This document shows positions 31,961-54,251 of a DNA stretch of 55,640 nucleotides, piece after piece. Numbering within the stretch: position 1 is the stretch's first letter; each line of letters opens with the position of its first letter. The notes beneath the pieces were generated by a model. That model saw only the letters and a list, made by a program, of their open reading frames with translations, was not told the DNA's origin and made no database searches. This stretch comes from a virus (lineage: Duplodnaviria > Caudoviricetes). Made by a program: the position numbers and the translations under genes. The stretch spans positions 1-55,640 of the IMG/VR virus record IMGVR_UViG_3300042309_002031. One strand, given 5' to 3'.

Positions 31961-32428
31961 TTACATTGTGTTTGAAAGGTCTCCGGCGCTTCCGTTAACC
32001 ATTATCTTACTCTGCGGGTCGCCCGGGGTTGAATTTAACTCCTCTTGAGCCTCAGAACTTTTCTTGAAGAAGTTCTTGAACTCGTCCACGACCGCCTCCT
32101 TAATCTTCTCGGCAGCCTTTTCTCCCGACATGTCCGATATGAGGTCGGAAAAAATATCCTCTAGATCGAGCGAATAGGCTTGGCCATAGGGCTCGGTGGA
32201 ACTTTCGTTCTGTATCCTGTAAGCGAGGTTGGATCCGACCTTGTATATGCGCACGCCCTCGAAATTCAGTCCTTCTTGAGGACTTGAGAGGAAAATATAA
32301 GGACTATCGCTCTTGAGGAAGTCCTCTACTTTGAGTCCGCCATCCTTGAGTATGTCGCGTATTATCTCCAACTCCTCTCTGGCCCTCGCGTTTTTCTTGT
32401 CTATGAAGCTTGAAAATCTCATTTTCAC
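31961..32428 (-). CDS. Hypothetical protein with CTS-like N-terminus
   Basis: MRFSSFIDKKN; GTGA overlap with upstream gene. Confidence 0.7.
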   Translation of the reverse strand: MKMRFSSFIDKKNARAREELEIIRDILKDGGLKVEDFLKSDSPYIFLSSPQEGLNFEGVRIYKVGSNLAYRIQNESSTEPYGQAYSLDLEDIFSDLISDMSGEKAAEKIKEAVVDEFKNFFKKSSEAQEELNSTPGDPQSKIMVNGSAGDLSNTM

Positions 32429-32913
32429 CTTGTGCTGTTGTAAAGGCTGGTCATCGTCTGTTTTTGATCTTCGCTGTTTTTCTTGTCATTCATGTACTTT
32501 GCGTAGGCTTGTTCTCTTTCCGAGAACTTTGGTGGATTAGGGCGCTTCCACTTGTAATGATCGCCCATTTTCACGTACCACATCGGAGGGGTTATCTGTT
32601 TACCCATATTGAAGGCTATCTGCCTATCCTTTAAGAATTCGCCAACCTTCTTCAACTGATAGTAGTACAAGTCGTAGTCTGAAATGTGATAGTCGGGACG
32701 CGGACCTATTCGGCTGTCAAATGGGATGTCGCTGAACTCACCTTGGGCATCCATAACCGGGGCTTGAGGCATTGCAGCCCCGACCTCTGACGGCCTCCCC
32801 AATAGTCCCGCCGCCGCCACCATAGGCATCACTGCTCTCTGCAATGACTTGGGGATCTTGACCTCGTCTAGCATTTCGGGGTGATTTTTCGCGAGATATT
32901 CTTCAAATTTCAT
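32425..32913 (-). CDS. Putative internal virion protein (CTS-like N-terminus plus hydrophobic segment)
   Basis: MKFEEYLAKNHPEMLDE then AVMPMVAAAGLLG. Confidence 0.65.
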   Translation of the reverse strand: MKFEEYLAKNHPEMLDEVKIPKSLQRAVMPMVAAAGLLGRPSEVGAAMPQAPVMDAQGEFSDIPFDSRIGPRPDYHISDYDLYYYQLKKVGEFLKDRQIAFNMGKQITPPMWYVKMGDHYKWKRPNPPKFSEREQAYAKYMNDKKNSEDQKQTMTSLYNSTR

Positions 32914-32914
32914 T

Positions 32915-34189
32915 TCAGCACTGCCTCATGAGTAAGTCGTGGACGCTGTATACGCATCTCTTGAGTACCTTCAAGTCGCTCGGATTGCCGGGATAAGCAA
33001 ATTCCTTGAACTCGGTTCCTTGCATCGCCTCCGCCGCCTCCTTGATTGTTGACAGCCCGGCCGTGAGGAACAACATTCCGTTCCTTTTTTCCATGAACTC
33101 TATCTCGTCAAGTTCTGGATTGCCGTACTCGTCTTGACCTCCGGTTTCCTTCACGAAGTAGATTTTAAGGTCTATCATCGGCACTATTTGTCCGTCGTCG
33201 GTTATCATCGCCTCCGAGTTCTCGGATTTGACAGTTTTGACGAGCACTTTGCCTTCCGTATAGGCGCCTCTCAAGGCGTTGGACATGTCCCATCCGAGGT
33301 AGTAGATCGTTCCGTTGTCGTCCACGACGTTTATGATGAATGCTTGCTCGTCGAACTGTTTCGCGATCGATTCGACGACGATCCTTCTCCTAAGCACGTC
33401 TCGTTCTTCGGGGCTTCCCTCAGAAAGTCTCTTGAGCTCGGGCTCTGACAGATACCTCTCGGGATCGTCCTCCCTCAAACTCCAACTCCCAAGGGCGACC
33501 TCTCCCCATTCTGAGTTGAGCCTCGTGGACATCTTGATCGAGTATTCCTTGTCGTTGAATATGATATTTTCCTTGTCGGGGCTGCTACTGACTTGGACCG
33601 AACCCGTCAGCGCCGCGAGGAACTTCCTGTGTATCTCGCCTTTGTTCCCGCTGTATCCCATCATCCTGATAAAAGCCTCGTTTAGTCCAGGAACCGGCTC
33701 CAGTCCTTGAAAGACATGGTTGACGACGCTCGTAGCGGGATTGTTCTTGTCAAGCTGATCCTTGATGCTCTTCCTTATGTTCTTTGAGGCGCTCGCGACA
33801 TTGGCGTTGGCCCTCAAGAGTTGCACGTTCCAGTTGTCATCCACGAACTTCCTCTGGTACGGCTCCATCTCGTCCTTTTCCCTCATTGGAGATAACATTT
33901 CCATCAACTTGGCCGCATCGCCCTTGGTGCTTTCCTTGAAATAATTTGACTTCCACACCTCAAAATCCACATTGTCATCAGACTCCTCGGGCATGTCAGG
34001 AGCCTCGGGATCTTGCGAGACGTCGTCTTGGGCTTGGTCTTGGGCCGTAACATCTTCGCCCGGAGATTGTTGTCCGTCCGGCTCCATCTGTCCTCCGTCC
34101 ATTTCCGGGCCCGCTTGTGCGACGGCAGCAACCGGATCTACTTGTTCCGGACTCTCGGCCTCTAGCCAAAATTCAAGATTGTGGTTCAT
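32915..34189 (-). CDS. Hypothetical acidic protein (424 aa; start moved to ATG 34189)
   Basis: AAGGA SD and ATGA overlap with upstream stop; MNHNLEFWLEAE then an acidic, Gln/Pro-rich region. Confidence 0.75.
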   Translation of the reverse strand: MNHNLEFWLEAESPEQVDPVAAVAQAGPEMDGGQMEPDGQQSPGEDVTAQDQAQDDVSQDPEAPDMPEESDDNVDFEVWKSNYFKESTKGDAAKLMEMLSPMREKDEMEPYQRKFVDDNWNVQLLRANANVASASKNIRKSIKDQLDKNNPATSVVNHVFQGLEPVPGLNEAFIRMMGYSGNKGEIHRKFLAALTGSVQVSSSPDKENIIFNDKEYSIKMSTRLNSEWGEVALGSWSLREDDPERYLSEPELKRLSEGSPEERDVLRRRIVVESIAKQFDEQAFIINVVDDNGTIYYLGWDMSNALRGAYTEGKVLVKTVKSENSEAMITDDGQIVPMIDLKIYFVKETGGQDEYGNPELDEIEFMEKRNGMLFLTAGLSTIKEAAEAMQGTEFKEFAYPGNPSDLKVLKRCVYSVHDLLMRQC

Positions 34190-34635
34190 GTTTCCTTCTT
34201 CTCCCTCTGAATCTTTTCCATCAGTGACTTTCTGTTGATCCCGCTGGAGTCGTATATATTGATCGTATTTCCGCCTTTTTCTTTGCCCTTCCCCATCCAT
34301 GGTTGGAAGGTGTCAGGCTGCTTCAGTTTGACCCTCGTCATCAAGTCGGCTATCTTCGCCATCCTGTCGCTTGTCTCTATCTTCGTCTTTAGAAGATTAA
34401 CAAGCGCCTCCTTGCTGGCAGTGGACGAGTCTCCGTCGTTGAGGACCATGTTAGAAAAAGTGTCGACAAGTCCCGAAACTTGATTTCTGTCGTCGCGCAA
34501 ATTGTCCATTATCTCGCCGTAAACACCCAGAAGAGACTCGTCGCTAATAATAGACAGTTCTTGGGCTTGAGGCCTCGCGGCTGCGACCTCTTCCGCCCCG
34601 ATGACCTCTCCTCCCAACTCTAGTTCTTTATCCAT
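34186..34635 (-). CDS. Hypothetical protein
   Basis: 149 aa; TATATA box 6 nt before ATG, no SD. Confidence 0.7.
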   Translation of the reverse strand: MDKELELGGEVIGAEEVAAARPQAQELSIISDESLLGVYGEIMDNLRDDRNQVSGLVDTFSNMVLNDGDSSTASKEALVNLLKTKIETSDRMAKIADLMTRVKLKQPDTFQPWMGKGKEKGGNTINIYDSSGINRKSLMEKIQREKKET

Positions 34636-34641
34636 ACCAAC

Positions 34642-34647
34642 TATATA
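34642..34647. promoter_or_regulatory. TATATA box between divergent operons
   Basis: CTATATAG is a perfect palindrome, between 34635(-) and 34679(+). Confidence 0.5.
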
Positions 34648-34678: not shown

Positions 34679-35026
34679 ATGGACGAAGACCGCCCAGATT
34701 ATTCCTCGCTTCAAGAGTCAATTAATAAAGTAATAGACAAGGCAAAGTCAATCACAAAGAGAATCTCCGAAATGGAGAGGGAAATTGATGACTTGATTCG
34801 GTCAAAACACGATCTGGAGGCGAGGGTGAGAACCTTGGAGTCAGAAGACATTGAGGTCGTAAAAAAACAGTTGTATGAGATAGATAGTAAAGTCCGATCT
34901 TTCGAGTCGGATCACGACAAGAGAAGGCAGAGTTGGAACATGGTTCTCAACTTCTTCGTACAGTTGTTATGGGTTTCAATGGCCGCATGGCTACTAACAA
35001 AATTAGGACTACAAGGCCCTTTATGA
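34679..35026 (+). CDS. Coiled-coil protein with C-terminal membrane anchor
   Basis: Heptad region followed by WNMVLNFFVQLLWVSMAAWLL. Confidence 0.7.
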   Translation: MDEDRPDYSSLQESINKVIDKAKSITKRISEMEREIDDLIRSKHDLEARVRTLESEDIEVVKKQLYEIDSKVRSFESDHDKRRQSWNMVLNFFVQLLWVSMAAWLLTKLGLQGPL

Positions 35027-35724
35027 ACTTCAAAGAATGGCTCTTATCTGAAATCGCGCAGAGAACAAAACTTTCTTCGGACACTGTTTCCGACAAAGCA
35101 ACTGCCTATGGGATTCCATTCGGAGGCGACAGAACTCCGGGTTTGGTCCAAGCGGCGGCCGGCGGTTTGGCAGGCGGTATAGGCCTTGGTGCTCGTAGAG
35201 CCTACGAACGTTCCGGAGGAGTTACAAGAGCAACTCCGCAAACAGCTGATCTTCCTTCACTGCCAAACAAAAAGGTTTCTGACGGTATTTCCTTGCCGCT
35301 ACAGTTGCCGGCCTTGCCCACGGATGAAAGTCCTTCGGGTAGACGCCAAGGCAATCCTCTATACAACATCACTTCCGCTTCGTGGAATGCTGTCAATAAT
35401 TTGACACACGACCCAGAAAATGATCCAAGAGTAAGAAAGGTTGGAGAATCCTTTAGAGAGGGAGATGGAAAATTCATCCCTCCGGCCTCTGGGAACCAAC
35501 AAGAACTAAACTTTGCAATATCTTTCACAAAGACCTTGATCCACATCATGACGGTTCAAAAGATGAATGATATTGACCCCGAGGTACTCAAGAAGTACGA
35601 CTTCGTAAATGCCCACACAGAAATGGAGCATGTCGATAAAGACAATGTTCTGACTTGTGTATTCTCTTTCAAGAAAAGAGACAACGTTCCGGACGGCATC
35701 AAGAGACAAAACGAACAAGATTGA
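35023..35724 (+). CDS. Putative internal virion protein (start moved to ATG 35023)
   Basis: ATGA overlap; MNFKEWLLSE N-terminus; Gly/Ala hydrophobic segment. Confidence 0.7.
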   Translation: MNFKEWLLSEIAQRTKLSSDTVSDKATAYGIPFGGDRTPGLVQAAAGGLAGGIGLGARRAYERSGGVTRATPQTADLPSLPNKKVSDGISLPLQLPALPTDESPSGRRQGNPLYNITSASWNAVNNLTHDPENDPRVRKVGESFREGDGKFIPPASGNQQELNFAISFTKTLIHIMTVQKMNDIDPEVLKKYDFVNAHTEMEHVDKDNVLTCVFSFKKRDNVPDGIKRQNEQD

Positions 35725-35739: not shown

Positions 35740-37239
35740 ATGAAATCATTCAAAGAATTTATAGCGAATAGAAACGTCATATCCGAGGAGACGGAGAAGA
35801 AGGAATGGCGTAAGGAATACATAAAACTAGAGAAAGGATTTGTTCCTCCTTCAAATTTGCGTCCAATCGTTCAAGCGTTTATCGACAGCGGATCAATATC
35901 TCTTACTAATGACATTTCATCCAAAGTGACCATGCCCAAGAAATCCTTGTTCTTGGTTGGAGGTCCCGTACGCGACTTTTTGCTCGGAAAGAAGTCCAAG
36001 GATCTTGATCTTGCAACAAATGCTACGCCCGAACAGATCGCCGTGATCCTCCACAACGCCGGGTTCTCTATGACGAAGGAAGATCCAAAATGGGATCTTC
36101 CTTTCAAGCCCAAGATTGCGGGCGATGACGATAACAAGAAATACTACTTGAAAGGAAGAGATTCTGCCGACAAACCGTTCGTCGTCGGCGCAGTTGTGAA
36201 TGGGGAGGAATTTGACGTCGCAACGTTCAGGAAGGACGCGAAGACCGTCAACGGCCAGTCGGAAGTTGACTTCGTGGACAATCCCCACGACGACGCTGAA
36301 AGAAGAGACTTTACCATCAACGCCATGTACATAGAGCTCAACAAGGCCGATGGAGAAAACAGCAAGCTTTATGACCCAACTAAATCCGGATACCATGACC
36401 TTCACTCAGGAATAATAAAGGCGGTTGGTAAAGCCGAAGCTCGATTCGACGAGGACAAACTCAGAGTCATGAGAGCAATAAGAATGCAAGCCAAGTACGG
36501 CAAGCAACCCATGAATCAATCTTTAAAGGATGCCATATCTAAGTTCTCGGACTTAGAGGGCGTGGCTTTAGAGAGAGTCCGAGAGGAATTCCTCAAGGGC
36601 CTAGAGGATCCGTTAGTAAATCCCAAAAAATATATAGTCATGTATTCTAGGCTCGGACTGTTGAAAAAAGTCCTTCCAGGAGTTCACCTTAACGCAGAAG
36701 TTCCTCCTCAATTGGCGGACAAAAAGGATAAGCATCTCGCCCTTGCGTGGATACTAAAAGACAATCCGATAGAAAGCGTGGAGCGAGCCCTTGGAAGAAA
36801 CAGAAAGATTGGCGACAGGGAGGCTCCTACCGGATGGTCTAATCAAGAAAGAGACATAGTCGTATATCTCCTCCGGCTCAAGGAATTCGACAAAGATCAA
36901 CTGGACGATCTTTTGAACAAGAAAAAGATTCTCGGCATCACCAAGGACCAGATTAAAAAATGGGTGGAACTATTTGACGTGGTGGACAAGCACACCGTCA
37001 GAACTCCACGTCCAAACTGGGCACAAAGTGTCAAGAGGTTCGCTGACTTTACGCCCGACCCTATGAAACTAGTAAGTTGGCACGCGAGGGACGAACAAGG
37101 AAATCCTACGACCGAAATTCACCCGGAGATCAAGACATTGGGCATGCACGATGTTCCGCCCCATTTCAGAGGATCTGTGGTGAAGGACATAAACAAAAAG
37201 AAGTTGCGTCAGATGTTCGACGACCAAGGCGCCGCTTGA
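35740..37239 (+). CDS. cca: Class II tRNA nucleotidyltransferase (CCA-adding enzyme family)
   Basis: FLVGGPVRDFLLG..DLDLAT (motif A), DVATFRKD, RRDFTINAM (B), EDKLRVMRAIR (D), ERVREE (E); no PAP GR[RK]F signature seen. Confidence 0.88.
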   Translation: MKSFKEFIANRNVISEETEKKEWRKEYIKLEKGFVPPSNLRPIVQAFIDSGSISLTNDISSKVTMPKKSLFLVGGPVRDFLLGKKSKDLDLATNATPEQIAVILHNAGFSMTKEDPKWDLPFKPKIAGDDDNKKYYLKGRDSADKPFVVGAVVNGEEFDVATFRKDAKTVNGQSEVDFVDNPHDDAERRDFTINAMYIELNKADGENSKLYDPTKSGYHDLHSGIIKAVGKAEARFDEDKLRVMRAIRMQAKYGKQPMNQSLKDAISKFSDLEGVALERVREEFLKGLEDPLVNPKKYIVMYSRLGLLKKVLPGVHLNAEVPPQLADKKDKHLALAWILKDNPIESVERALGRNRKIGDREAPTGWSNQERDIVVYLLRLKEFDKDQLDDLLNKKKILGITKDQIKKWVELFDVVDKHTVRTPRPNWAQSVKRFADFTPDPMKLVSWHARDEQGNPTTEIHPEIKTLGMHDVPPHFRGSVVKDINKKKLRQMFDDQGAA

Positions 37240-40621: not shown

Positions 40622-41442
40622 GATATCTTCATGTAATTAAGGAGTCCCCTTCTGTCCATCACTTGGTGGTGCGTCTTGCCGTATGTCACTCCCTCCTTGC
40701 ACCTATTGAAACTGACTGACTCAAAAAGCGTCTCGTTTGGCTGAACAAGGTGTATGCTTATTCCCTTATATCCGAATTCGCCCTCTTTCTTGAGGCATTG
40801 GTTGATGTCCCTCATCATGAACTCATTTAGACTTATGTCCAACGCCCGGTAAGCCATCTTTACCGCCCTCATGAATCCCGTGGGTCGCTTCCACTCGTCT
40901 ATCTCAAAGCGTCGCCCCATTATCACATAGATGTCTTGGCACCCGGCCTCAATGCACTGCTCCAAAGGTGCCAGTTGCCTGCTTCCGGCATCCACCCACC
41001 CGTTCCTGTCCTCGACTAAAGCGGTGATCGCGACACTCCCCAGAACGGCCTCGGCGAATTCTTCGGGCGACACGGACTTGTTCGAGACATAGTCCATCCT
41101 GCCGTCTTCAATGTTCATTCTCACAACGACGCTCTCGCATATTGGTTGATTTTTTACGGCGTTGTAGACAATCTTCTCCATGGGCCGCTGGTTCATGAGT
41201 CCGCTTCTCCAAGGAAAGTCATAATTAATTTTGAACACGTCGAATATGTTGCCTATGTTGCTCCACATGTCGGCAAGTCCTTGCGGCCCTAGAAAGGAAT
41301 ATGATGCTGCGCATATAGAGCCCGAAGAAACTCCTATGGTAAAGTCGGCATTCACGCCTCGCTCGTGTAGTCCGAGGGCTATACCCGCTTGTATTGATCC
41401 TCTTGCGCCCTCGCCCGTGAAGCAGAATCCTATTTTGCTCAT
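40618..41442 (-). CDS. Patatin-like phospholipase
   Basis: GEGARG oxyanion loop, GVSSG nucleophile elbow, WVDAG catalytic Asp. Confidence 0.88.
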   Translation of the reverse strand: MSKIGFCFTGEGARGSIQAGIALGLHERGVNADFTIGVSSGSICAASYSFLGPQGLADMWSNIGNIFDVFKINYDFPWRSGLMNQRPMEKIVYNAVKNQPICESVVVRMNIEDGRMDYVSNKSVSPEEFAEAVLGSVAITALVEDRNGWVDAGSRQLAPLEQCIEAGCQDIYVIMGRRFEIDEWKRPTGFMRAVKMAYRALDISLNEFMMRDINQCLKKEGEFGYKGISIHLVQPNETLFESVSFNRCKEGVTYGKTHHQVMDRRGLLNYMKIS

Positions 41443-41795
41443 TTTTCATTTCCCTTTTTTGATTTCTTTCCTTTCTTCTTTCTACGCTTCTTCTTGCAGT
41501 TGCCGCAGTTGCAATGCGGATAGCAATATCCACATCCGATGACTGAGGGGCGAATCGCGATTGAACTTGAAGTCGTTCCTGTGCTCGGAGGAGGCGTCGT
41601 CGAACCTCCGGATGAAGACCCGTCCCCACCACCAGTCCCACCCCCAGAGTCCCCACCCCCAGAGTCCCCACCCCCAGAGTCCCCACCACCAGCAGCCCCA
41701 CCACCACCAGCACCTCCACCAGCAGCTCCACCAGCGGCTCCACCACCACCAGCGGCTCCATCTTCTCTTAGCCTAACCCATTCAGAAAATTTCAT
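41439..41795 (-). CDS. Gly-rich small protein with Cys cluster and basic tail, CTS-like N-terminus
   Basis: MKFSEWVRLRE, Gly linker, CGYCYPHCNCGNC, KKKRRKKKGKKSKK; GAGG SD; TATATA at 41811-41816. Confidence 0.7.
   Translation of the reverse strand: MKFSEWVRLREDGAAGGGGAAGGAAGGGAGGGGAAGGGDSGGGDSGGGDSGGGTGGGDGSSSGGSTTPPPSTGTTSSSIAIRPSVIGCGYCYPHCNCGNCKKKRRKKKGKKSKKGNEK
41625..41760 (-). repeat. Gly-rich low-complexity repeat (GGGDS x3; GGAAG)
   Basis: 15-bp units CCCCACCCCCAGAGT. Confidence 0.8.
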
Positions 41796-41822
41796 TTTTT
41801 ACCTCAGCCATATATAGATAAA

Positions 41823-44155: not shown

Positions 44156-44184
44156 AATCTAGCAGATTATCGGTTCGACATCAA
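44156..44184 (-). promoter_or_regulatory. Sigma70-type promoter for the AAA gene (probably leaderless)
   Basis: TTGATG-17 nt-TAGATT with TG extension, ending 7 nt before ATG 44148. Confidence 0.5.
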
Positions 44185-44402
44185 TCTCGGGACTGATCAA
44201 TTGCTCTTCTATTTCTAGACGATCTGGATCCTTGATCTTTTTTAGATTTGAATGTCGTGTCCCTACGTCCCGAAACTTGTCGCTGCGGACTCGGCTCGGA
44301 AAGTTCGACCTTATTGGTCTTCTCCTTGGGCATCTGCACCGGGACGGACTTGCCCTTTGCCTCCGTCATTAACCTCTGTTCTAGCCAAGATGAAAATTGC
44401 AT
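44181..44402 (-). CDS. Small basic protein with CTS-like N-terminus (start moved to ATG 44402)
   Basis: GAGG SD; MQFSSWLEQRLMTE then Lys/Arg/Ser-rich. Confidence 0.65.
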   Translation of the reverse strand: MQFSSWLEQRLMTEAKGKSVPVQMPKEKTNKVELSEPSPQRQVSGRRDTTFKSKKDQGSRSSRNRRAIDQSRD

Positions 44403-44440: not shown

Positions 44441-44446
44441 TATATA
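44441..44446. promoter_or_regulatory. TATATA box between divergent CTS-bearing genes
   Basis: Located in the 52-nt gap between 44402(-) and 44455(+). Confidence 0.5.
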
Positions 44447-44454
44447 TTTTCACT

Positions 44455-45975
44455 ATGGATTTTTCAATTTGGCTCTTTACAGAAGAACAGCAAAAATACG
44501 TCAGAACCAGAAAGGACATCAGTCCCAAGAACCCAGCAAACAGTTTTCTGGTGCTCTACGGGGCGGACAAACAAGAAAAAGATTTGATGTTTTCGTTCAA
44601 GGATGAACTGAGGAGAATGGGGTTCGGATACTACAGGCCAGCAGGAACCTACTCCATCTTCTCGGCGAAAGTTGACGACGCCATGAGAAACAAACTTTCT
44701 CAACTAGGCGTGGATTTAAGCGGATACGATAGTGGACAAGTAGTGACATCAGTCCCCAAAACAACACAACCGGAGACGCCGGCGGATCAAAATCTAGAGC
44801 AAATGCACAATGAGCTGTCCAAGGTCATTGCGGACGACCCAAAAACTCAAGAACTCATAGACAGCATAGAAAGAATGATAGAACGGATAGCCAACAGCAC
44901 CGACGAGGCGGCCAAACAGGCCTTTATTAGAAACTTTTTCCAATTTGCCGGAAAGTTCTACGACTACAGCATGCATAACCAGTTCTTGATTTGGATACAG
45001 ACCAAGGGAAGGGCCAACTACGTAGCCACAGAGAATCAGTGGACCGAAAGATTCGGAAGGGCCGTCCGAGACCATAAATCCTTCATATCCCTACTCAGGC
45101 CAAATAACACCAATGACAAAAAGAAAGAATCCGATGACAAAAAGAAAGAGCCCGCTTTGGAATTAGATTCTGATACGACAAAGAAGAAAACGGGTAGGTT
45201 GTTCTTTACGGCCTACAAAGTCTACGACGTAAGCGCGACTGTTCCCATCCCCGGCCACCCCAGCCCCTTTGAGCCCATGACCAGGAAACAGTGGAGCGTG
45301 GATTCGAACGAAGACGTGGAAGAGGTCAAGCAATACATAGCGGCCTTGAGCGACTGGGCCAAAGAAAACAATATAAACGTAGCCTACGAGGAACTTGATC
45401 CCGAACTTGGAGGCTATTCGGCGGGCGGAAAGGTTGCCATCAACAACGTTTTCAAGGGAATCAACCATTTTAGCACGTTTGTCCACGAAGTCGCCCATGA
45501 AATCCTCCACTGGAAGGACAAGGACAAAAAGAGCACCAAGATGGAGAAAGAGATAGACGCTGAAAGTACTGCCTTCATCGTACTCAGCCACTTCGGTTTC
45601 GAAACCAAAGACACGAGCAACTATCTGGCCATGTGGCGAGCGAAAGGAGACGACATCAGGGCGAGGAGGCGCAACATCCAGAAGGCATCGGAAGAAATAA
45701 TCAACGGCATAAAGAGCAAAATGACAGAGGAACAGCCTAAAGAGGAGTCAGACATAGAAGAAAACACGCAACACAACTCGGCGATCATCAAAGTCTATAG
45801 AGCGGACGGAGTGATACACGCCAACATAAACGGCGAAGAAAAGAAGTTTGAGGTTGATAAATTCTACTTCCAAGAACTGAGGGATTCCAAGAACGCATAC
45901 AAGACGCTCATGGAGCTAGTTCGCAAGGGCTACGCCAGCGAATTGACCTCTCCAAAGAGACCCGCAAACGATTAA
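44455..45975 (+). CDS. ArdC-like ssDNA-binding domain plus zincin metallopeptidase (polyvalent-protein type)
   Basis: FYDYSMHNQFLIWIQ..VAT..QW..GRAV (ArdC-N), VYDVSAT, HEVAHEILH..EIDAESTAF. Confidence 0.8.
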   Translation: MDFSIWLFTEEQQKYVRTRKDISPKNPANSFLVLYGADKQEKDLMFSFKDELRRMGFGYYRPAGTYSIFSAKVDDAMRNKLSQLGVDLSGYDSGQVVTSVPKTTQPETPADQNLEQMHNELSKVIADDPKTQELIDSIERMIERIANSTDEAAKQAFIRNFFQFAGKFYDYSMHNQFLIWIQTKGRANYVATENQWTERFGRAVRDHKSFISLLRPNNTNDKKKESDDKKKEPALELDSDTTKKKTGRLFFTAYKVYDVSATVPIPGHPSPFEPMTRKQWSVDSNEDVEEVKQYIAALSDWAKENNINVAYEELDPELGGYSAGGKVAINNVFKGINHFSTFVHEVAHEILHWKDKDKKSTKMEKEIDAESTAFIVLSHFGFETKDTSNYLAMWRAKGDDIRARRRNIQKASEEIINGIKSKMTEEQPKEESDIEENTQHNSAIIKVYRADGVIHANINGEEKKFEVDKFYFQELRDSKNAYKTLMELVRKGYASELTSPKRPAND

Positions 45976-45993
45976 CATTTTCCCGACTGGGAG

Positions 45994-49352: not shown

Positions 49353-49386
49353 GTTTTTAAATTAGTAACTGGGAATATATTCAAGA

Positions 49387-49578
49387 TTATTTCAAATGGC
49401 TCTTGATATAGGATATTGTTTCCGAAGCCCCCTTCATGAAATAACTAACGCACATCATGACTATCGCAAGATAGGGAAGGCTTTGAACTAAGCGCCCAAA
49501 TGAAAGATAAGACAAGCCGATCCATCCCAAGGTCAACAAGGCCTCAAACGACAAGATAAAAACCAGCATTTTGAACAT
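49387..49578 (-). CDS. Two-TM membrane protein
   Basis: Two hydrophobic helices in 63 aa. Confidence 0.6.
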   Translation of the reverse strand: MFKMLVFILSFEALLTLGWIGLSYLSFGRLVQSLPYLAIVMMCVSYFMKGASETISYIKSHLK

Positions 49579-49579
49579 T

Positions 49580-49987
49580 TTAGATCCTTGATGAAGCCAT
49601 AATTGATTTGTCTATATCCTCTAATGTCGCCTTAGCCGCCCTTCTCTCGCTCTCTTTTGAATTGAACTGGCCTCCATCCGGATCCTTGATTATGCGTTCC
49701 GCGAGTTCCTTGAGATTTGCCAACTCTTCGTTGGAGGCATTAACAAAGACAAAATCTACGTTATCTCCTCTGCGATTTAGAAGCGCCCCCGCCAATTCGT
49801 ATCTTGGCGTGATGTATCTCTTGAACACATTGTACGTAGCGTACGAAAGCCTTATGCGAATGATATTGAACCCGCTTTCATTGGGCTTGACCTTGGAGTA
49901 CGACCTTAAAGAGTCGACTTGTTTCTGTATTGAATCCATGGCGTAGGGGTTAACCGCTATTTCCATGAACTTTCCGAATGTAATCAT
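49580..49987 (-). CDS. Hypothetical protein with CTS-like N-terminus (start moved to ATG 49987)
   Basis: MITFGKFME; TATATA (49993-49998) 5 nt before ATG. Confidence 0.65.
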   Translation of the reverse strand: MITFGKFMEIAVNPYAMDSIQKQVDSLRSYSKVKPNESGFNIIRIRLSYATYNVFKRYITPRYELAGALLNRRGDNVDFVFVNASNEELANLKELAERIIKDPDGGQFNSKESERRAAKATLEDIDKSIMASSRI

Positions 49988-50054
49988 GCTTTTATATACG
50001 GTTTCAAATTGATTCCCTTCGAGGATAGATACAAAGCCCAAACAGGAGGTCAAT

Positions 50055-50150
50055 ATGTGCAAGTGTAAGTGTCTTCCGTGCGTCAAGGGAAAGTGCGAAA
50101 AATGCAGATGCAAAGACTGCAAATGCGAAGGTTGTTCCTGCAAGAAGTGA
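50055..50150 (+). CDS. Metallothionein-like Cys-rich peptide (31 aa, 11 Cys; not in ORF track)
   Basis: AGGAGGT SD; MCKCKCLPCVKGKCEKCRCKDCKCEGCSCKK*; GTGA overlap with next gene. Confidence 0.75.
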   Translation: MCKCKCLPCVKGKCEKCRCKDCKCEGCSCKK

Positions 50151-50836
50151 TCCCCAAGATCTGGCTAGCAGTCCTTACAATATCTATATGTCAAAACCTC
50201 CACGCAGAGGACATAGACATGCTTATATCGGCACTCGGAAGTAGTTCCTATGCCGAAAGGGAAGATTCTGCCAAAAAAATAAGAAAGGCCGGGCATGAGG
50301 CAGTCGCCCATCTTGAGAAGCACTTTGAAGACTGCGACTTAGAGATCGCCTTGAAGTCCAGAGAGCTTTACGAGGAATATTTACATATCGAGGATGTGGA
50401 GATGCCCTCCATATGGTTCCTTGACAACGAGCACAGGTTTCCGGAAGGATACGAGATAACCTATGCTCCTAACTTCAGCGTGTGTTCAATAAAATCTAAA
50501 ATGGATGTGGCGGAACATTTTTACTGCGATGTCAAGCGGCCGAAGCTTGAAACCTTCGCTGACCACTGTAACGAGTTGTATCTCAATCTATTCGATACGT
50601 TCTGGCGGGATCCCAAGGCAAGCTCCAAAGCGATGAGGAACTATGTGAGGAGCGAGTTGAAGCGCGGAAAAAGCAAGGAAGAAGTCAAATCCATGCTAAA
50701 GAAGGCCTCCGACAATATGAATTCACAAGAACTTATGTACCAGACATCCGACATAAACAGCAACAGCTGGGACTACTGGAGGCTCCCACCTGGGGTGATG
50801 GTTTTTAAGGAAGAGTTTGTGTTTCCTTCCCGCTAG
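50147..50836 (+). CDS. Secreted protein with HEAT-like repeat (start moved to GTG 50147)
   Basis: Signal peptide ending NLHA, then LISALGSSSYAEREDSAKKI..AVAHLE..DLEI. Confidence 0.65.
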   Translation: MIPKIWLAVLTISICQNLHAEDIDMLISALGSSSYAEREDSAKKIRKAGHEAVAHLEKHFEDCDLEIALKSRELYEEYLHIEDVEMPSIWFLDNEHRFPEGYEITYAPNFSVCSIKSKMDVAEHFYCDVKRPKLETFADHCNELYLNLFDTFWRDPKASSKAMRNYVRSELKRGKSKEEVKSMLKKASDNMNSQELMYQTSDINSNSWDYWRLPPGVMVFKEEFVFPSR

Positions 50837-51573
50837 GACCTAAGATAAGCCAGAAGATCCGAACATCCGTCCAGCCCCTTGTATTTTTTCTGATCCGGCG
50901 TCATGACATCTATCACATCCGCAAGGGCCCTCTTGTCCAAGTCTTCCTCCCGAATCAAGTACTGCCGCAGAATGAATAGGCAAAAGTTTTGTTGGGGAAA
51001 TCCAACAGTGACTTGTCGCTCCACCTTGACAAGAACTTTAGGTTCGTTTTTGTTGAACTTGCTGTACGGCAGCCTCGGATGGAAGTTGTAACGTTCGTCA
51101 TGGACGACGCTCCATACAAACCTCTCAAAAATGCCCGCATTAACCATTGCGTGAACCAACTTCTGGCTGTTTTTGAGGTTCATGGGTACGGGCTGGTGTA
51201 TCTGATTAAAGGATGTGCCTATCTTGTCCTCAGGTCGCCAGTGGCTCGCGAAACATATATGGGCGCTACTAAGCCAGTCCCTTTCTCCTTCAATTCTGTG
51301 GATGAGAAAATCCTCCTCAGTCTCCCTCGCTATTTCTAAGTAATCTTTACCCTTCAGAGGCCTCGGATAATGCTCTAGTATCCATTTTTCGCACGCCTCG
51401 TAGATCGCCGGGTCGTTCTCGTGCTCCATGAAGTAGTTCTGGTTCAGAAGGGCCTCGGCCTTTTCGGCCCGTATCGCTTCCAAATCCGATTCGTCTTTTT
51501 CAAAGACATCAACCGGATCCAATTTTTTCAAGTTGGGCAAGGTGCTATATCCCGCCTTATAGACATGATACAT
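50833..51573 (-). CDS. Heme-dependent oxidative N-demethylase alpha-like protein (DUF3445)
   Basis: EDF..LSSAHICFASHW..KIG..IHQPVP..RFVWS..VERQ..LFILR. Confidence 0.75.
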   Translation of the reverse strand: MYHVYKAGYSTLPNLKKLDPVDVFEKDESDLEAIRAEKAEALLNQNYFMEHENDPAIYEACEKWILEHYPRPLKGKDYLEIARETEEDFLIHRIEGERDWLSSAHICFASHWRPEDKIGTSFNQIHQPVPMNLKNSQKLVHAMVNAGIFERFVWSVVHDERYNFHPRLPYSKFNKNEPKVLVKVERQVTVGFPQQNFCLFILRQYLIREEDLDKRALADVIDVMTPDQKKYKGLDGCSDLLAYLRS

Positions 51574-51590
51574 TTTTAATTTCCGCTAGA

Positions 51591-51596
51591 TATATA
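51591..51596. promoter_or_regulatory. TATATA box 4 nt before ATG 51601
   Basis: In a 27-nt divergent gap; no SD. Confidence 0.5.
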
Positions 51597-51600
51597 GGTT

Positions 51601-53115
51601 ATGTTCAAAAAATGGCTTATAGATGAAGAGCAAAGACAAGAGATAAACTGGGCTATATCCAGCAACATATCTGACCTCCTACCTTTGTACCTAATAGAGT
51701 CAAAGTTGGAGAAAGAAGAGGAGGCATACAAGCCAAAGCATCCCTCTTACAGCATAATAGGCGGCGGCGACACAAACCCGAAGACCGCCATACATCCGGA
51801 GACCAAACAGACTTATCTCGGAGCCGTTCTGCATCTTGAGCCCTATATGGCTTCGGGCGAACAGACGTGCCCTTTTGCTACCGCGATATATAAGATCACC
51901 GTCAAAAACCTAGATCCGCAAACTATGCAATTGATCAAATCGACACCCGGATACGAAGAAGTTTATGGAAATCATGTCTTCTACGGTTTCGAACTCAGGT
52001 CCAAGGATAAGGACTCGGGATGGGGAAAGGTCTCCGATACACTCCTACCGAAAGACAGACAAGCTCAATGCCCCTTGAGGATGAAGATAAGGCTCCCCGG
52101 ATCAAACCTAAGAGACTGGACGACCGGCCAAACAATACAACTAAGCAGAAGCGACATAGTGCACTCTGATCTCGTGGGAGGTTGCGCCAACGCGTGCCTC
52201 CACACCAGCGGTAATCCGGCACAAGCAAGCGGCAAACTCACTTCTAGGAGAAGGAAGACCTTGGAATTGAAAAATGACTCCGAGGGCTTCATGAATAAGG
52301 TCCTGCTAGATGTTTTTAGATTATCCCAATCGGCTGAGAAACAAGGCCACAAACCCGTCATCAGACTCAACGCCACAAGCGATGAGGCTTGGGAAAGGGA
52401 TTACAAGTTCCCCGAAGATCCAGCGAAGACGGAGAGCATGATAAGGACTCAATGGCCTAAGAAGTTAAGGGGCGAACTGGCCGCTCACATCCGTAAAATG
52501 ATCAACTTCCAATCTAATAGGTTTGAAGACGCAATTCCAGAAATCGCCAAATATGTAAGTGGAAAGACACTGATGGAGGTTTTTCCCGAAGTCCAATACT
52601 ATGACTACACGAAGAACCCTTCTAGAATGGTACAGTACATAAGGTCTAGAAACGGAAGAACAGGAAATTGGCCCAAGAATTACCATCTCACTTTCAGCTT
52701 AGCCGAAGATAACAGAGAAATTGCAAAGAAAATACTTGCGGACGGCGGAACTGTAGCGGCCGTATTCAACGTAGAGAAGAACCCCAGTAAAGAAGGAGAT
52801 CTTCCAAAGACGTGGGCGGGCTTCCCTGTAATAGACGCCGACAAGCACGATTACAGATTCTTGGATGCCCCGGGCCATATAGCCGGACTGCGGGCCAAAG
52901 GCGAAGCAAAGTTTCAAAGTACCGACTTTGGATTCGTCATACAGCCCGACGATCCCGAACTAGATCCGGAAGACCCGGCCGTAATTCAAGCCAAGAAATA
53001 CTCGGACAACTTTGAGAGAAGAATAAGCAGCGGAGAATTAAAGTCTCGCCCTGGGTCAATAAGAGGAAGAATGAGGGCCGCCGGAAAAGCGACCGGAAAC
53101 GCTGTTTACTACTAA
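51601..53115 (+). CDS. GP88-family phage protein (radical-SAM-like), with insertions
   Basis: CPFA..GCANACLHTSG, IRLNATSD, YYDYTK, NYHLTFS, VIDADKHDYRFLD, GLRAKG. Confidence 0.75.
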   Translation: MFKKWLIDEEQRQEINWAISSNISDLLPLYLIESKLEKEEEAYKPKHPSYSIIGGGDTNPKTAIHPETKQTYLGAVLHLEPYMASGEQTCPFATAIYKITVKNLDPQTMQLIKSTPGYEEVYGNHVFYGFELRSKDKDSGWGKVSDTLLPKDRQAQCPLRMKIRLPGSNLRDWTTGQTIQLSRSDIVHSDLVGGCANACLHTSGNPAQASGKLTSRRRKTLELKNDSEGFMNKVLLDVFRLSQSAEKQGHKPVIRLNATSDEAWERDYKFPEDPAKTESMIRTQWPKKLRGELAAHIRKMINFQSNRFEDAIPEIAKYVSGKTLMEVFPEVQYYDYTKNPSRMVQYIRSRNGRTGNWPKNYHLTFSLAEDNREIAKKILADGGTVAAVFNVEKNPSKEGDLPKTWAGFPVIDADKHDYRFLDAPGHIAGLRAKGEAKFQSTDFGFVIQPDDPELDPEDPAVIQAKKYSDNFERRISSGELKSRPGSIRGRMRAAGKATGNAVYY

Positions 53116-53693
53116 TGACAATACTATTCTTGATATATTGCCTACCTTTATTTGCCATCTACGCCATCCTCTGCCTCACAGTTCCTCTACTAAGATTCGG
53201 AGACATCAAGAACGGCAAGGGAATCAAACTCTACATATCAAAAGATATGATCCACTCAGACTACTTGTTCGAATCCTCGCTATGGAAGAATGAGTTTGCT
53301 CCAAAGGGAAAGTACATAAAAATAGGCTGGGGAGACAAGAAGATATTCCTTGAAACGAAAGATTGGTCTAGCCTCAAAATTATTGATTTCCTCTTTGCCT
53401 TTTTTGGTTTGAACAAGACAGTGTTGAGGGTCGACTTTCTGGACGAAATCCCTCAAGGTAGCACAGAAATAAGTATAGATGAACTGCAACTAGAGGTGCT
53501 GAAAATATATGTCAAGGAATCGCACAACGGACGGATCGTCCAGAAGAGGCCACACTACTACCAGAAGGGCGACTTCTATGAGTCCAACCTCAGGTACAAC
53601 TGTATAACAAACTGCAACAACTGGGTAAATCGCGGCTTATTCATAGCAAGAGCCACCAACCGGATCTGGTGCCCGCTCAGTTTCTGGTTGTAA
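53115..53693 (+). CDS. DUF2459-like membrane-anchored protein
   Basis: N-terminal TM; IHSD, IGWGDK.IF, FYES..Y....CNNWV. Confidence 0.75.
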   Translation: MTILFLIYCLPLFAIYAILCLTVPLLRFGDIKNGKGIKLYISKDMIHSDYLFESSLWKNEFAPKGKYIKIGWGDKKIFLETKDWSSLKIIDFLFAFFGLNKTVLRVDFLDEIPQGSTEISIDELQLEVLKIYVKESHNGRIVQKRPHYYQKGDFYESNLRYNCITNCNNWVNRGLFIARATNRIWCPLSFWL

Positions 53694-53697
53694 TCGA

Positions 53698-53703
53698 TAT
53701 ATA
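53698..53703. promoter_or_regulatory. TATATA box 5 nt before ATG 53709
   Basis: In a 15-nt intergenic gap; no SD. Confidence 0.5.
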
Positions 53704-53708
53704 CTTGC

Positions 53709-54251
53709 ATGACGAGTTTTGCCAAATATTTCATAACAAGAGAATTGAAGGGTTTGGAAGTTTCCGGGGTACTCTCCGAATCCGCTAAATCCCTTCAAAT
53801 CGGGCGCCTCAAAGAAAAATATGCGGGGCACTTTTACGATAAGTTCCCCAAGGCGCAGTACGAAGACATAGAAGAGGCCCTCCACGATTCCTTTGAAAAG
53901 GTCATGGTCGGCAAACACGACGCAAGATCGGCAGAAAACCTCTTCAAAAAAATGGTCGACGACAGCCTTTCCGGCCTCCGCAGAAAGAAAAGCACCGCGA
54001 AAAAGAGCCTATCTTGCGTGAAAGTCCTCAAATCCTTGGGATCCGATATGCCCTCGCTAATCAAGAGAGCGGAGAGGATGCTCACAAGCCAAGAAAAGAA
54101 GATCATAGAAATGTGCTCCCAAGGAAAGTCGGTCAGATCCATAGGTTCGGAACTCGGAATTTCCGCCGCTACCGCGTGGAGATCCCTCAACGATGGACTG
54201 GACAAAATCAGACTCTCGTATGGTATGAAATCAAGAAAATTAGGAAGATAA
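53709..54251 (+). CDS. ECF-sigma-like protein with region-4 HTH
   Basis: EDIEEALHDSF (region-2-like); LTSQEKKIIEM..GKSVRSIGSELGISAATAWRSL..GLDKIR (region 4). Confidence 0.65.
   Translation: MTSFAKYFITRELKGLEVSGVLSESAKSLQIGRLKEKYAGHFYDKFPKAQYEDIEEALHDSFEKVMVGKHDARSAENLFKKMVDDSLSGLRRKKSTAKKSLSCVKVLKSLGSDMPSLIKRAERMLTSQEKKIIEMCSQGKSVRSIGSELGISAATAWRSLNDGLDKIRLSYGMKSRKLGR

What the first reader, a model, noticed from the sequence alone, without database searches (positions are those of the whole stretch)
31961..54251. About ten unrelated proteins share a T4-like capsid-targeting N-terminus: candidate packaged-and-injected enzyme cargo system
Seen, after correcting starts: MKSFKEFIANRNVISEE (35740, CCA enzyme), MNFKEWLLSE (35023), MKFEEYLAK..LDE (32913), MRFSSFID (32422), MKFSEWVRLRE (41795), MQFSSWLE (44402), MDFSIWLFTEE (44455, ArdC-zincin), MITFGKFME (49987), MFKKWLIDEE (51601, GP88), MTSFAKYFITRE (53709, sigma-like), and weaker MNHNLEFWLEAE (34189). 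The consensus is M-x(0-2)-F-x-x-[WFY]-[LIVMF]-x(n)-E. Established: T4 internal proteins carry the 10-aa capsid-targeting sequence MKTYQEFIAE, removed by the gp21 prohead protease after Glu. Internal cross-check: these genes lie directly behind, or in operons headed by, the TATATA box, whereas the four genes with sigma70 promoters and the baseplate genes lack the peptide. Inference: the phage tags a tRNA-repair enzyme, an anti-restriction/protease protein, a putative Fe-S enzyme and a transcription factor for head packaging and delivery at infection.
Basis: partly seen in the sequence, partly recalled or inferred. Interest (0 to 1): 0.9.

Follow-up and report, generated by a model that had tools for sequence, protein, structure and literature searches.

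The report
T4-like cargo tag, huge phage
Ten otherwise unrelated proteins on this fragment of an uncultivated huge phage start with the same short peptide, which matches at its key positions the tag phage T4 uses to load proteins into its head, so this phage probably ships many ready-made enzymes into the host with its DNA.

Summary
All ten strong N-termini and the weak eleventh are at the stated coordinates. The pattern M-x(0-2)-F-x-x-[WFY]-[LIVMF] sits at 8 of 58 first ATGs against 4 of 416 later ATGs.

The window is about 11% of an uncultivated huge phage. Three relatives carry the same tag on 5-12% of their genes, and six other phages with T4-type heads, T4 included, do not. Conservation is at the amino-acid level. 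The tag survives in CCA-enzyme orthologues down to 30% identity and is absent from more distant phage CCA enzymes.

The conserved positions are aromatic 4 and 7, hydrophobic 8 and Glu at about 9-12. These are the positions reported to control targeting (4, 7) and processing (8, 10) of the T4 capsid-targeting sequence. Close relatives encode a T4-type prohead protease, scaffold-like protein and gp23-type capsid protein. Tagged proteins are unusually basic.

Packaging, cleavage and injection are inferred and not shown. I read this as a new, greatly expanded variant of the T4 capsid-targeting system (confidence about 0.6).

The parts
35740..37239 (+). Tagged CCA-adding (tRNA nucleotidyltransferase) enzyme, 499 aa. 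The tag is MKSFKEFIA and a candidate cleavage site is VISE17. The catalytic domain starts near residue 69.
   Evidence: Pfam PolyA_pol E = 9e-27. phrog_2244 aligns residues 69-382 to profile positions 4-288. Fifteen orthologues keep M1, F4, an aromatic at 7 and a hydrophobic residue at 8. In the AF2 model residues 1-21 have pLDDT below 50, with a short helix at 4-9.
35023..35724 (+). Tagged protein of 233 aa with no known family; MNFKEWLLSE. Its ATG overlaps the stop codon of the upstream gene.
   Evidence: matrix score 16.7, rank 2. The G002 orthologue starts MNFKEWLVSE. No Pfam or PHROG hit.
32425..32913 (-). Tagged protein of 162 aa with no known family; MKFEEYLAK...MLDE17.
   Evidence: No hit in G002 or LR756511.1.
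31961..32422 (-). Tagged protein of 153 aa, acidic (pI 4.3); MRFSSFIDKK.
   Evidence: The LR756511.1 orthologue starts MLEFKEFIDKK, 46% identity.
32915..34189 (-). Protein of 424 aa with a variant tag in which L replaces the first aromatic: MNHNLEFWLEAE. An acidic, Pro-rich linker follows.
   Evidence: SD-led start at 34189. Orthologues start MNHNLEFWLEAE in G002 and MTDRINLEDWLDQ in LR756511.1. The conserved body starts near residue 54 of the 461-aa ORF called from 34300, about residue 17 of this protein.
41439..41795 (-). Tagged protein of 118 aa; MKFSEWVRLRE11. It has a Gly-rich linker and a Cys-rich, very basic tail (pI 9.6).
   Evidence: (rank 1). The G002 orthologue starts MKFSNWLKLRE.
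44181..44402 (-). Tagged small, very basic protein of 73 aa (pI 11.0); MQFSSWLEQRLMTE.
   Evidence: The G002 orthologue starts MRFSSWLGERMLSE.
44455..45975 (+). Tagged ArdC-like protein of 506 aa; MDFSIWLFTEE. It has an ArdC N-terminal domain and an HExxH motif.
   Evidence: Pfam ArdcN residues 131-257, E = 1e-6. HEVAH can be read in the translation. TATATA ends 8 nt before the ATG. The G002 orthologue starts MNFSLWLFSEE.
49580..49987 (-). Tagged protein of 135 aa with no known family; MITFGKFME9.
   Evidence: TATATA ends 5 nt before the ATG. The matrix score is low (0.0), so this is the weakest of the ten.
51601..53115 (+). Tagged GP88-family protein of 504 aa; MFKKWLIDEE.
   Evidence: Pfam GP88 E = 2e-29, residues 193-440 on profile positions 43-221. 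TATATA ends 4 nt before the ATG. At the same locus G002 has a different tagged gene starting MEFKEWLYNE.
53709..54251 (+). Tagged HTH protein of 180 aa (LuxR/GerE, sigma region 4-like); MTSFAKYFITRE.
   Evidence: Pfam GerE E = 1e-6 and phrog_1740 sigma factor E = 2e-5. TATATA ends 5 nt before the ATG. The G002 orthologue starts MSFARYFIMRE.
44441..44446 (.). Palindromic TATATA box between the divergent tagged genes at 44402(-) and 44455(+).
49993..49998 (.). TATATA box 5 nt upstream of the tagged start at 49987(-).
51591..51596 (.). TATATA box 4 nt upstream of 51601(+) and 17 nt upstream of the untagged start at 51573(-).
53698..53703 (.). TATATA box 5 nt upstream of 53709(+).
34642..34647 (.). 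TATATA box heading two divergent operons: 34635(-) leading to 34189, 32913 and 32422, and 34664(+) leading to 35023 and 35740.
41811..41816 (.). TATATA box 15 nt upstream of the SD-led tagged start at 41795(-).
31342..31887 (-). Untagged neighbour resembling the T4 gp2 DNA end protector. It is the last gene of the operon that holds three tagged genes.
   Evidence: phrog_429 E = 4e-5.

Best explanation
The shared N-terminus is an address label of the T4 capsid-targeting type. It is a short amphipathic segment with an aromatic residue at position 4 (F), an aromatic at 7 (W/F/Y), a hydrophobic residue at 8 and an acidic residue (E/Q/D) at 6. A Glu usually follows at about positions 9-12, often in a hydrophobic-x-Glu context.

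Inferred mechanism: late in infection the label docks the protein onto the scaffolding core of the assembling prohead. The T4-type (Peptidase_S77) prohead protease then removes the label after the Glu. The mature protein stays inside the head with the DNA and enters the next host at infection.

In this phage clade the label has spread to 5-17% of all genes. In the window it marks a CCA-adding enzyme, an ArdC-like protein, a GP88-family protein, an HTH/sigma-like factor and six or seven small proteins of unknown family, most of them basic.

Shown here: the tag exists, is enriched, is selected at the peptide level, is specific to the clade, is kept in orthologues, matches the functional positions of the T4 tag, and co-occurs with a T4-type head module in relatives. 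Inferred: binding to the core, cleavage, packaging and injection.
For: 1. Enrichment. Window: 8/58 first ATGs against 4/416 later ATGs, p = 1e-5. LR756511.1: 37/994 against 31/3635, p = 2e-9. G002: 15/167 against 3/791 deep ATGs. G004: 27/396 against 1/1118.
2. Cross-validation.
3. Positions outside the search pattern are also conserved. F+2 is E/Q/D in 32/44 tags. Any Glu at +2..+8 after the second aromatic is found in 88/110 tags against 614/1528 controls. Hydrophobic-x-Glu is found in 63/110 against 341/1528, p = 4e-14.
4. Selection acts on the peptide. The F codon is TTT 30 / TTC 14, against 58:42 genome-wide. The hydrophobic position uses 13 different codons, and third positions carry almost no information.
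5. Orthologues. Fifteen CCA orthologues at 97-30% identity keep M1, F4, an aromatic at 7 and a hydrophobic residue at 8, while residues 5-45 otherwise vary. Ten more distant phage CCA enzymes start 15-25 aa before GGxVRD with no tag.
6. T4 match. The T4 N-termini are ipI MKTFKEF..., ipII/III MKTYQEFIAE and alt MELITELFDE. The matrix ranks ipI 3rd, ipIII 15th and ipII 19th of 1095. Passages of review PMC9026906 state that targeting depends on residues 4 and 7 and processing on residues 8 and 10.
7. Head module. G002 (51/58 window genes with hits, collinear), G004 and LR756511.1 encode a portal, a Peptidase_S77 protease (E about 1e-28), a scaffold-like protein and a Gp23 capsid protein (E about 1e-86 to 1e-90) in T4 order. 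In LR756511.1 the three large genes next after the capsid gene (two small untagged ORFs lie between) begin with near-tag N-termini: one fits the strict pattern, one has W for F, and one needs a GTG start.
8. The scaffold-like protein is rich in [LI]xE: 3.8-4.2 per 100 aa against a proteome mean of 1.25, as is T4 gp22 at 5.9. The T4 gp24 propeptide site LRE10|S aligns with RLINE|N in the clade's capsid protein.
9. Tagged proteins are basic, like the T4 internal proteins. Median pI is 8.6 against 6.2, p = 3e-9.
10. In the AF2 model of the CCA enzyme the tag sits on a low-confidence tail (residues 1-21) outside the fold.
11. Tagged genes are swapped at fixed loci, as at the T-even internal-protein loci (that comparison is recalled, not from a call).
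Against: - No head gene lies in the window itself, so the link rests on relatives.
- There is no virion proteome or N-terminal sequence for any member of the clade. The nearest cultured phages share only about 34% capsid identity.
- A T4-type head does not require mass tagging. G005, XacN1, Mel-JY01, Syn33, RM378, 260 kb of LR756508.1 and T4 itself show none or only a handful of tags.
- The two best matrix hits in T4 are gene 61.1 and an ORF inside the 3' end of uvsW. To my knowledge (recalled) neither is a known head protein.
- Two of the ten window tags (32422, 53709) have no hydrophobic-x-Glu site within 22 residues. In the 153-aa protein, conservation runs straight on from the tag.
- Part of the hydrophobic-x-Glu excess is forced, because the pattern already demands a hydrophobic residue at +1.
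- Tagging 5-17% of genes, among them a CCA enzyme, an SNF2 helicase and a Toprim protein, is far beyond any described packaged set for the T4 tag.
- phmmer found no T4 gp22, gp67, gp68 or gp55 homologue in the clade.
Confidence: 0.6

Rival explanations
1. The tag is a real, selected peptide signal with a different job. It could dock late proteins onto another hub, such as a chaperone, an assembly factory, a membrane site or a second protease (LR756511.1 has a diverged S77 paralogue). It could also mark them for timed proteolysis. On this reading the likeness to the T4 tag is convergence on a generic amphipathic helix.
For: - The tagged set is very large and includes enzymes expected to act in the cytoplasm: CCA enzyme, SNF2 helicase, Toprim, GNAT.
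- Other phages with T4-type heads lack mass tagging.
- T4 look-alike N-termini occur on gene 61.1 and a uvsW-internal ORF.
- There is an S77 paralogue at 242240-243133 of LR756511.1.
Against: - The conserved positions coincide with the four functionally mapped positions of the T4 tag.
- The tag co-occurs with a T4-type protease, scaffold-like and capsid module.
- The tagged proteins are basic.
- Large genes beside the capsid gene carry near-tag N-termini.
- No alternative hub has been identified.
Confidence: 0.27
2. The pattern is a by-product of how these genes are expressed. Many of them sit 4-5 nt behind a TAnATA box and may be translated from leaderless mRNAs, so the first codons could be constrained for transcription start or for leaderless initiation.
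For: - 29 of the 68 strict-pattern hits in LR756511.1 (internal hits included) have the box ending 4-5 nt before the ATG.
- Those 29 are out of about 69 starts in that genome with such a box.
- Four of the ten window tags have the same arrangement.
Against: - Conservation is at the amino-acid level and not the nucleotide level.
- Six of the ten window tags are SD-led, as are those CCA orthologues whose upstream sequence I saw (window and G002).
- More than half of the box-adjacent starts in LR756511.1 lack the strict tag, and some of these look like structural proteins.
- AT-rich G005 and Mel-JY01 show no enrichment.
Confidence: 0.07
3. The shared 5' end is a recombination cassette (promoter plus first codons) that spreads genes between loci, and the peptide itself has no function.
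For: - A different tagged gene occupies the same locus in the window and in G002.
- 3 of the 7 window genes without a G002 hit are tagged.
Against: - Mean pairwise nucleotide identity over the tag is 47%, and 33% at third positions. That is too low to drive homologous recombination.
- The tag persists in CCA orthologues at 30% identity.
Confidence: 0.04
4. The pattern arises by chance or from choosing start codons to fit.
For:
- The pattern is short.
Against: - First-ATG-only counts, deep-ATG controls and shuffles all reject chance.
- An independently trained matrix recovers the same starts.
- The result is replicated in three further genomes and absent from seven controls.
Confidence: 0.02

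Closest known systems
Capsid targeting sequence (CTS) of the phage T4 internal proteins IPI, IPII and IPIII (and the Alt propeptide)
   Same: - It is an N-terminal label of about 10-19 aa starting at Met1 on otherwise unrelated, mostly basic proteins.
- The key hydrophobic or aromatic residues are at 4 and 7, a hydrophobic residue is at 8, and a Glu follows.
- The phage lineage has a Peptidase_S77 protease and a gp23-type capsid protein.
- Cargo genes vary between relatives.
   Different: - T4 has a handful of such proteins. This clade tags 10/58, 20/168, 29/399 and about 51/1000 genes.
- The consensus here is F4/W7 (MKTFxEWLE), against Y/F4 and F7 in T4.
- The Glu position is looser, at 9-12 or later.
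- The cargo includes large enzymes.
- The tag is tied to a TAnATA box that abuts the ATG.
- No packaging or cleavage data exist.
Long N-terminal propeptides of ejection proteins in phiKZ-like giant phages (SPN3US, phiKZ, 201phi2-1)
   Same: - Large heads hold about 50 different proteins.
- Many are processed by a T4-related prohead protease at x-x-Glu sites and are ejected into the host.
- A diverged protease paralogue is present (abstract and passages of PMC5694885).
   Different: - Those propeptides are mostly longer than 100 aa.
- They have no shared short consensus; only two paralogues have identical N-termini.
- Here the label is a short motif common to unrelated proteins.
Polymorphic internal-protein loci of T-even phages, where diverse proteins carry a conserved CTS
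   Same: - Related phages carry different cargo genes behind the same label (passages of PMC3012670 and PMC9026906).
- Here the GP88 locus holds a different tagged gene in G002.
   Different: - Here the label is not conserved at the DNA level.
- The loci are scattered over the whole genome.

Membership tests
T4-type capsid targeting sequence | Short label at the extreme N-terminus (Met1 to about residue 10-19) shared by otherwise unrelated proteins | tested here: met
   Pfam places four carriers in different families. The 103 tagged proteins hit 19 different Pfam families.
T4-type capsid targeting sequence | Targeting determinants at residues 4 and 7 (hydrophobic or aromatic) | tested here: met
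   F at position 4 in the commonest form of the tag and W/F/Y three residues later. These are invariant in 15 CCA orthologues. The T4 requirement is taken from passages of PMC9026906. F is invariant in the pooled tag set by construction of the pattern.
T4-type capsid targeting sequence | Processing determinants: hydrophobic residue at 8 and Glu at about 10, that is the gp21 site (L/I)-x-Glu | tested here: inconclusive
   Glu is enriched after the tag (88/110 against 614/1528) and hydrophobic-x-Glu is found in 63/110 against 341/1528. The position varies, 2 of 10 window tags lack a site, and the hydrophobic residue at +1 is forced by the pattern. No cleavage data exist.
T4-type capsid targeting sequence | The phage encodes a T4-type prohead protease (Peptidase_S77), a scaffolding core and a gp23-type capsid protein | tested here: inconclusive
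   There are 0 matches in the window, which is about 11% of a genome. The module is present in G002 (51/58 window genes with hits), G004 and LR756511.1. The scaffold is inferred from position, composition and [LI]xE density only. phmmer finds no link to T4 gp22.
T4-type capsid targeting sequence | Carriers are found inside virions with the label removed | not testable with these tools
   There is no cultured clade member. No RNA or proteome data were obtained.
T4-type capsid targeting sequence | The label is sufficient to package a foreign protein | not testable with these tools
   This needs a bench experiment.
Sec/Tat or lipoprotein signal peptide | Positively charged n-region followed by an uninterrupted hydrophobic core of about 10-20 aa | tested here: not met
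   Read directly from the sequences. The hydrophobic residues are spaced i, i+3, i+4, with E/Q/D and K between them and charged residues after them. There is no hydrophobic run. No predictor was run.
Paralogous gene family sharing an N-terminal domain | Detectable similarity beyond the first about 12 residues | tested here: not met
   All-against-all BLASTP of the 11 window proteins gave no pair below E = 0.01. The alignment of 103 tagged proteins has a mean column identity of 3%.

The most novel reading that the evidence does not exclude
This abundant, uncultivated clade of huge phages uses one short address label to load some 10-50 different proteins per genome into the capsid. The load would include an RNA-repair set (CCA-adding enzyme, AAA_33 kinase-like and tRNA-ligase phosphodiesterase-like proteins), an ArdC-like anti-restriction protein, an SNF2 helicase, a Toprim protein and an HTH/sigma-like factor. 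These would be injected as a ready-made counter-defence and take-over kit. If so, the injected proteome of uncultivated phages could be read from sequence alone, and cargo genes are exchanged at fixed loci as in an arms race.
Probability: 0.4. Interest if true: 0.85.

Novelty: new variant of a known kind. Interest (0 to 1): 0.75.

Why it matters
The T4 capsid-targeting sequence is described in the reviews I read as a feature of T4 and its close T-even relatives, carried by a few small internal proteins.

Here the same kind of label, with the same key positions, marks 5-17% of the genes of a widespread uncultivated huge-phage clade. The scaffold-like protein of that clade has 1273 relatives at E <= 1e-5 in public metagenomes.

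If the label works as it does in T4, three things follow:
- It gives a sequence-only way to list the proteins that such phages carry into the cell.
- It suggests that tRNA repair, anti-restriction and transcription factors are delivered pre-made.
- It offers a natural, portable packaging tag for a second capsid system.

My two literature searches found no report of such a tag in huge or metagenomic phages.

Tried and rejected
- **Complex prediction.** I ran complex prediction with the scaffold-like protein (alignment A1) and residues 1-60 of the CCA enzyme (alignment A2). The verdict was 'no answer', with scores of 0.00 and 0.00, and the controls were not run. This counts neither for nor against binding.
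- **RNA runs.** The look-up of sequencing runs for window 41001-51000, kind rna, listed no RNA holder. Read laying was therefore not used, and the leaderless start sites remain inferred.
- **GP88 relatives.** The search for related loci with the GP88 protein found no relative in viral contigs.
- **XacN1.** This phage is cultured and has a published virion proteome. It has only 6/464 strict hits. The best of them are ORF117 and ORF314, both annotated 'predicted ORF'. The passages I searched in PMC5852040 do not mention them. The virion list is in a figure that is not held, and supplements are closed, so whether they are virion proteins could not be checked.
- **T4 homologues.** phmmer with T4 gp55, gp22, gp67, gp68, gp2, gp3, gp18, gp19 and others against the clade proteomes found only gp20, gp21, gp23/24, gp4 and gp13 relatives. 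A T4-type late sigma factor was therefore not shown.
- **Rejected explanations.** I rejected a nucleotide-level signal, paralogy, chance and a general bias of AT-rich huge phages (G005 and Mel-JY01).
- **Limits of the T4 scan.** Only the first 135,000 of the 168,903 bases of the T4 record were scanned.
- **Limits of the pooled tag set.** The pooled set of 110 tags includes some later-ATG hits within 25-55 codons of an ORF start, and a few of these are probably false. One tagged gene that crossed a chunk border and six very short ORFs were left out of alignment A3.
- **Gene calls.** Gene calls are from my own codon-usage ORF caller, because no standard gene finder was available.

Full report
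**What the window is.** The 55,640-base window is the whole record held for this genome, and CheckV rates it about 11% complete. Bases 1-31,900 carry contractile-tail genes on the minus strand. These include a baseplate J/gp6-like protein, a Tail_P2_I protein, a Phage_base_V spike, PKD-domain proteins, a 2199-aa tape-measure-like protein and a gp2-like 'DNA end protector'. The rest holds accessory genes. No tRNA genes were found. The closest public record is LR756511.1, an uncultured phage of 595,163 bp, with 46% identity on the baseplate protein and gene order shared over window 808-37,239. A much closer relative is the IMG/VR contig G002 of 143,618 bp, which has hits for 51 of 58 window genes at 60-96% identity in collinear order.

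**The observation.** To remove the effect of start picking, I counted the pattern M-x(0-2)-F-x-x-[WFY]-[LIVMF] only at the first ATG of each of my 58 called ORFs.
- The pattern is found at 8 of 58 first ATGs, against 4 of 416 later in-frame ATGs (p = 1e-5).
- Only 1 of 348 ATGs more than 60 codons into an ORF matches.
- Shuffling residues 2-15 gave a mean of 0.27 matches and a maximum of 2 in 2000 trials.
- The eleven proteins are otherwise unrelated.

**The tag belongs to a clade.** Counts of first ATGs against ATGs more than 60 codons deep:

| Genome | First ATGs | Deep ATGs | p |
|---|---|---|---|
| LR756511.1 | 37/994 | 16/2518 | 2e-9 (against all 31/3635 later ATGs) |
| G002 | 15/167 | 3/791 | 1e-9 |
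| G004 (323 kb) | 27/396 | 1/1118 | 2e-15 |
| G005 (393 kb, complete) | 1/436 | 4/1643 | 1.0 |
| T4 (first 135 kb) | 1/203 | 3/689 | 1.0 |
| XacN1 | 6/464 | 5/1587 | 0.02 |
| Mel-JY01 | 1/226 | 3/894 | 1.0 |
| Syn33 | 2/168 | 0/694 | 0.04 |
| RM378 | 2/142 | 4/666 | 0.29 |
| LR756508.1 (260 kb) | 2/268 | 3/859 | 0.34 |

Every genome in the table has a Peptidase_S77 match, and all but T4, where I did not run the Pfam Gp23 search, were reached through or shown to have a gp23-type capsid match. Mass tagging is thus specific to the window, G002, G004 and LR756511.1. Pooled, it affects 10/58, 20/168, 29/399 and about 51/1000 genes.

**The signal acts on the peptide.**
- Positions outside the search pattern are conserved. 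F+2 is E/Q/D in 32 of 44 tags, and Glu and Lys peak further on.
- Synonymous sites are free. The F codon is TTT 30 / TTC 14 against 58:42 genome-wide, the hydrophobic position uses 13 different codons, and third positions carry almost no information.
- Orthologues keep the tag while the neighbouring residues change. Across 15 CCA-enzyme orthologues (97-30% identity), M1 and F4 are invariant, position 7 is always F or Y and position 8 is always hydrophobic, while the rest of the first 45 residues varies.
- Ten more distant phage CCA enzymes start 15-25 residues before the GGxVRD motif and have no tag.
- The PHROG profile for the family aligns from residue 69 of the window protein.
- The AF2 model gives pLDDT below 50 for residues 1-21, with a short helix at 4-9, ahead of a confident body.
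- The variant tag of the 424-aa protein (L-E-x-W-L-[ED]) is also kept in LR756511.1, ahead of a divergent acidic linker.

**Comparison with T4, using fetched data.** In the T4 record, ipII and ipIII begin MKTYQEFIAE, ipI begins MKTFKEFTSTTTPVSTITE, alt begins MELITELFDE and gp24 begins MAKINELLRE. The huge-phage matrix ranks ipI 3rd, ipIII 15th and ipII 19th of 1095 six-frame ATG-ORFs in the first 135 kb of T4. The Y at position 4 of ipII and ipIII costs them score, because F is fixed in the training set. Passages of the review PMC9026906 state that in IPIII the targeting lies mainly at residues 4 and 7 and the processing at residues 8 and 10. They also state that the tag is enough to package foreign proteins. 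PMC3012670 describes T-even internal proteins as diverse defence proteins that share only the tag. The four positions conserved here are the same four.

**Head module and protease sites in relatives.**
- G002, G004 and LR756511.1 carry, in T4 order, a portal, a protein of about 600 aa of unknown family, a Peptidase_S77 protease, a Glu-rich scaffold-like protein of about 305 aa and a Gp23-type capsid protein.
- The capsid protein is 75-83% identical within the clade and 29% identical to T4 gp23.
- The scaffold-like protein has three times the proteome density of [LI]-x-Glu, as T4 gp22 does.
- The T4 gp24 propeptide site aligns with RLINE|N in the clade's capsid protein.
- After the tags, Glu is enriched (88/110 against 614/1528), and hydrophobic-x-Glu occurs in 63/110 against 341/1528, mostly at protein positions 10-12.
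- Tagged proteins are basic, with a median pI of 8.6 against 6.2 (p = 3e-9), as the T4 internal proteins are said to be.

**Expression context.** In LR756511.1 a TAnATA box ends 4-5 nt before about 69 ATGs, and 29 of the 68 strict-pattern hits have it. G004 shows the same arrangement. In the window four tags sit 4-8 nt behind TATATA with no Shine-Dalgarno sequence, and six are SD-led. The box resembles the T4 late promoter (recalled). Its closeness to the ATG suggests leaderless late mRNAs, but this is inferred and no RNA data were obtained. The box also precedes untagged genes, structural ones among them. It therefore marks a gene class that includes the tagged genes and does not mark the tag itself.

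**Cargo.** Of 103 tagged proteins scanned, only a minority hit Pfam at E <= 1e-5. The hits were PolyA_pol (3 proteins), GP88 (2), AAA_33 (2), GerE (2), and one each of CAP, FGE-sulfatase, Peptidase_C39, SNF2/ResIII/Helicase_C, Toprim_2, tRNA_lig_CPD, GNAT, ArdcN, AstE_AspA and DUF5661. Three of the seven window genes with no G002 hit are tagged. At the GP88 locus G002 holds a different tagged gene.

**Verdict.** The best explanation is a T4-type capsid-targeting label that has expanded to dozens of proteins (confidence 0.6). Docking to the core, cleavage, packaging and injection remain inference, and the window itself holds no head gene. The main rival is a peptide signal with another target (0.27). 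I rate this a new variant of a known kind. Two literature searches found no report of such a tag in huge or metagenomic phages.

Noticed in passing
L019 19130(-) and L021 (T4 record 114210+): In T4 the two best matches to the huge-phage tag matrix are not the internal proteins. They are gene 61.1 (MKTFKEFIKEDMV, 54 aa) and an ORF inside the 3' end of uvsW (MLLEFKQFLYEAS). They might be unrecognised carriers of the capsid-targeting sequence, or they might show that such N-termini have other uses.
   Followed up: no
LR756511.1 (L002-L013) genome-wide; G004; window 44441, 49993, 51591, 53698: A TAnATA box ends 4-5 nt before the ATG of about 69 genes in LR756511.1, leaving no room for a Shine-Dalgarno sequence. 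This suggests a large class of leaderless, probably late, mRNAs in this clade.
   Followed up: partly
window 51573-51640 and G002 17,480-17,800: At the same locus the window has a leaderless tagged GP88 gene and G002 has a different, SD-led tagged gene of 354 aa. G002 still shows a remnant of the window's first codons behind the shared TATATA box.
   Followed up: partly
LR756511.1 242240-243133: There is a second, diverged Peptidase_S77 paralogue of 297 aa far from the head module. The paper on giant phage SPN3US reports a similar protease paralogue.
   Followed up: no
window 24746-31345 (-): This 2199-aa protein has a Gly/Arg-rich stretch, repeated 'SRSIKD.IFRIKVNFKHL' units and long hydrophobic, Gly-rich segments. 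It is tape-measure-like by position, and its length varies between relatives (2082 aa in G002, 1640 aa in LR756511.1).
   Followed up: no
window 40618-48842: The untagged accessory genes are unusual for a phage: patatin-like phospholipase, SET-domain protein, AAA ATPase with an N-terminal hydrophobic segment, sulfotransferase, caspase-like Peptidase_C14 with a hydrophobic N-terminus, and the HAD domain of 'Swiss Army Knife' RNA repair proteins. A GT47 exostosin-like glycosyltransferase lies at 54252-55277.
   Followed up: partly
window 38763-39581 (-): The N-terminus MAFFQNLFDQE has hydrophobic residues at 4, 7 and 8 and a Glu at 11, like the T4 Alt propeptide, but it does not fit the strict pattern. 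The LR756511.1 orthologue starts MFFQNPFGEE, so this may be a further variant tag or nothing.
   Followed up: no
G005 75518-77425: The gp23-type capsid protein of the untagged huge phage G005 is 635-643 aa long. Its Pfam match is split into two parts, which suggests a large insertion domain.
   Followed up: no
G002 109595 and 116207: Two proteins carry MK[TS]FYEM[LM], with Met in place of the second aromatic, a few residues after an upstream start. They may be further tag variants that the strict pattern misses, so the tagged fraction is probably underestimated.
   Followed up: no
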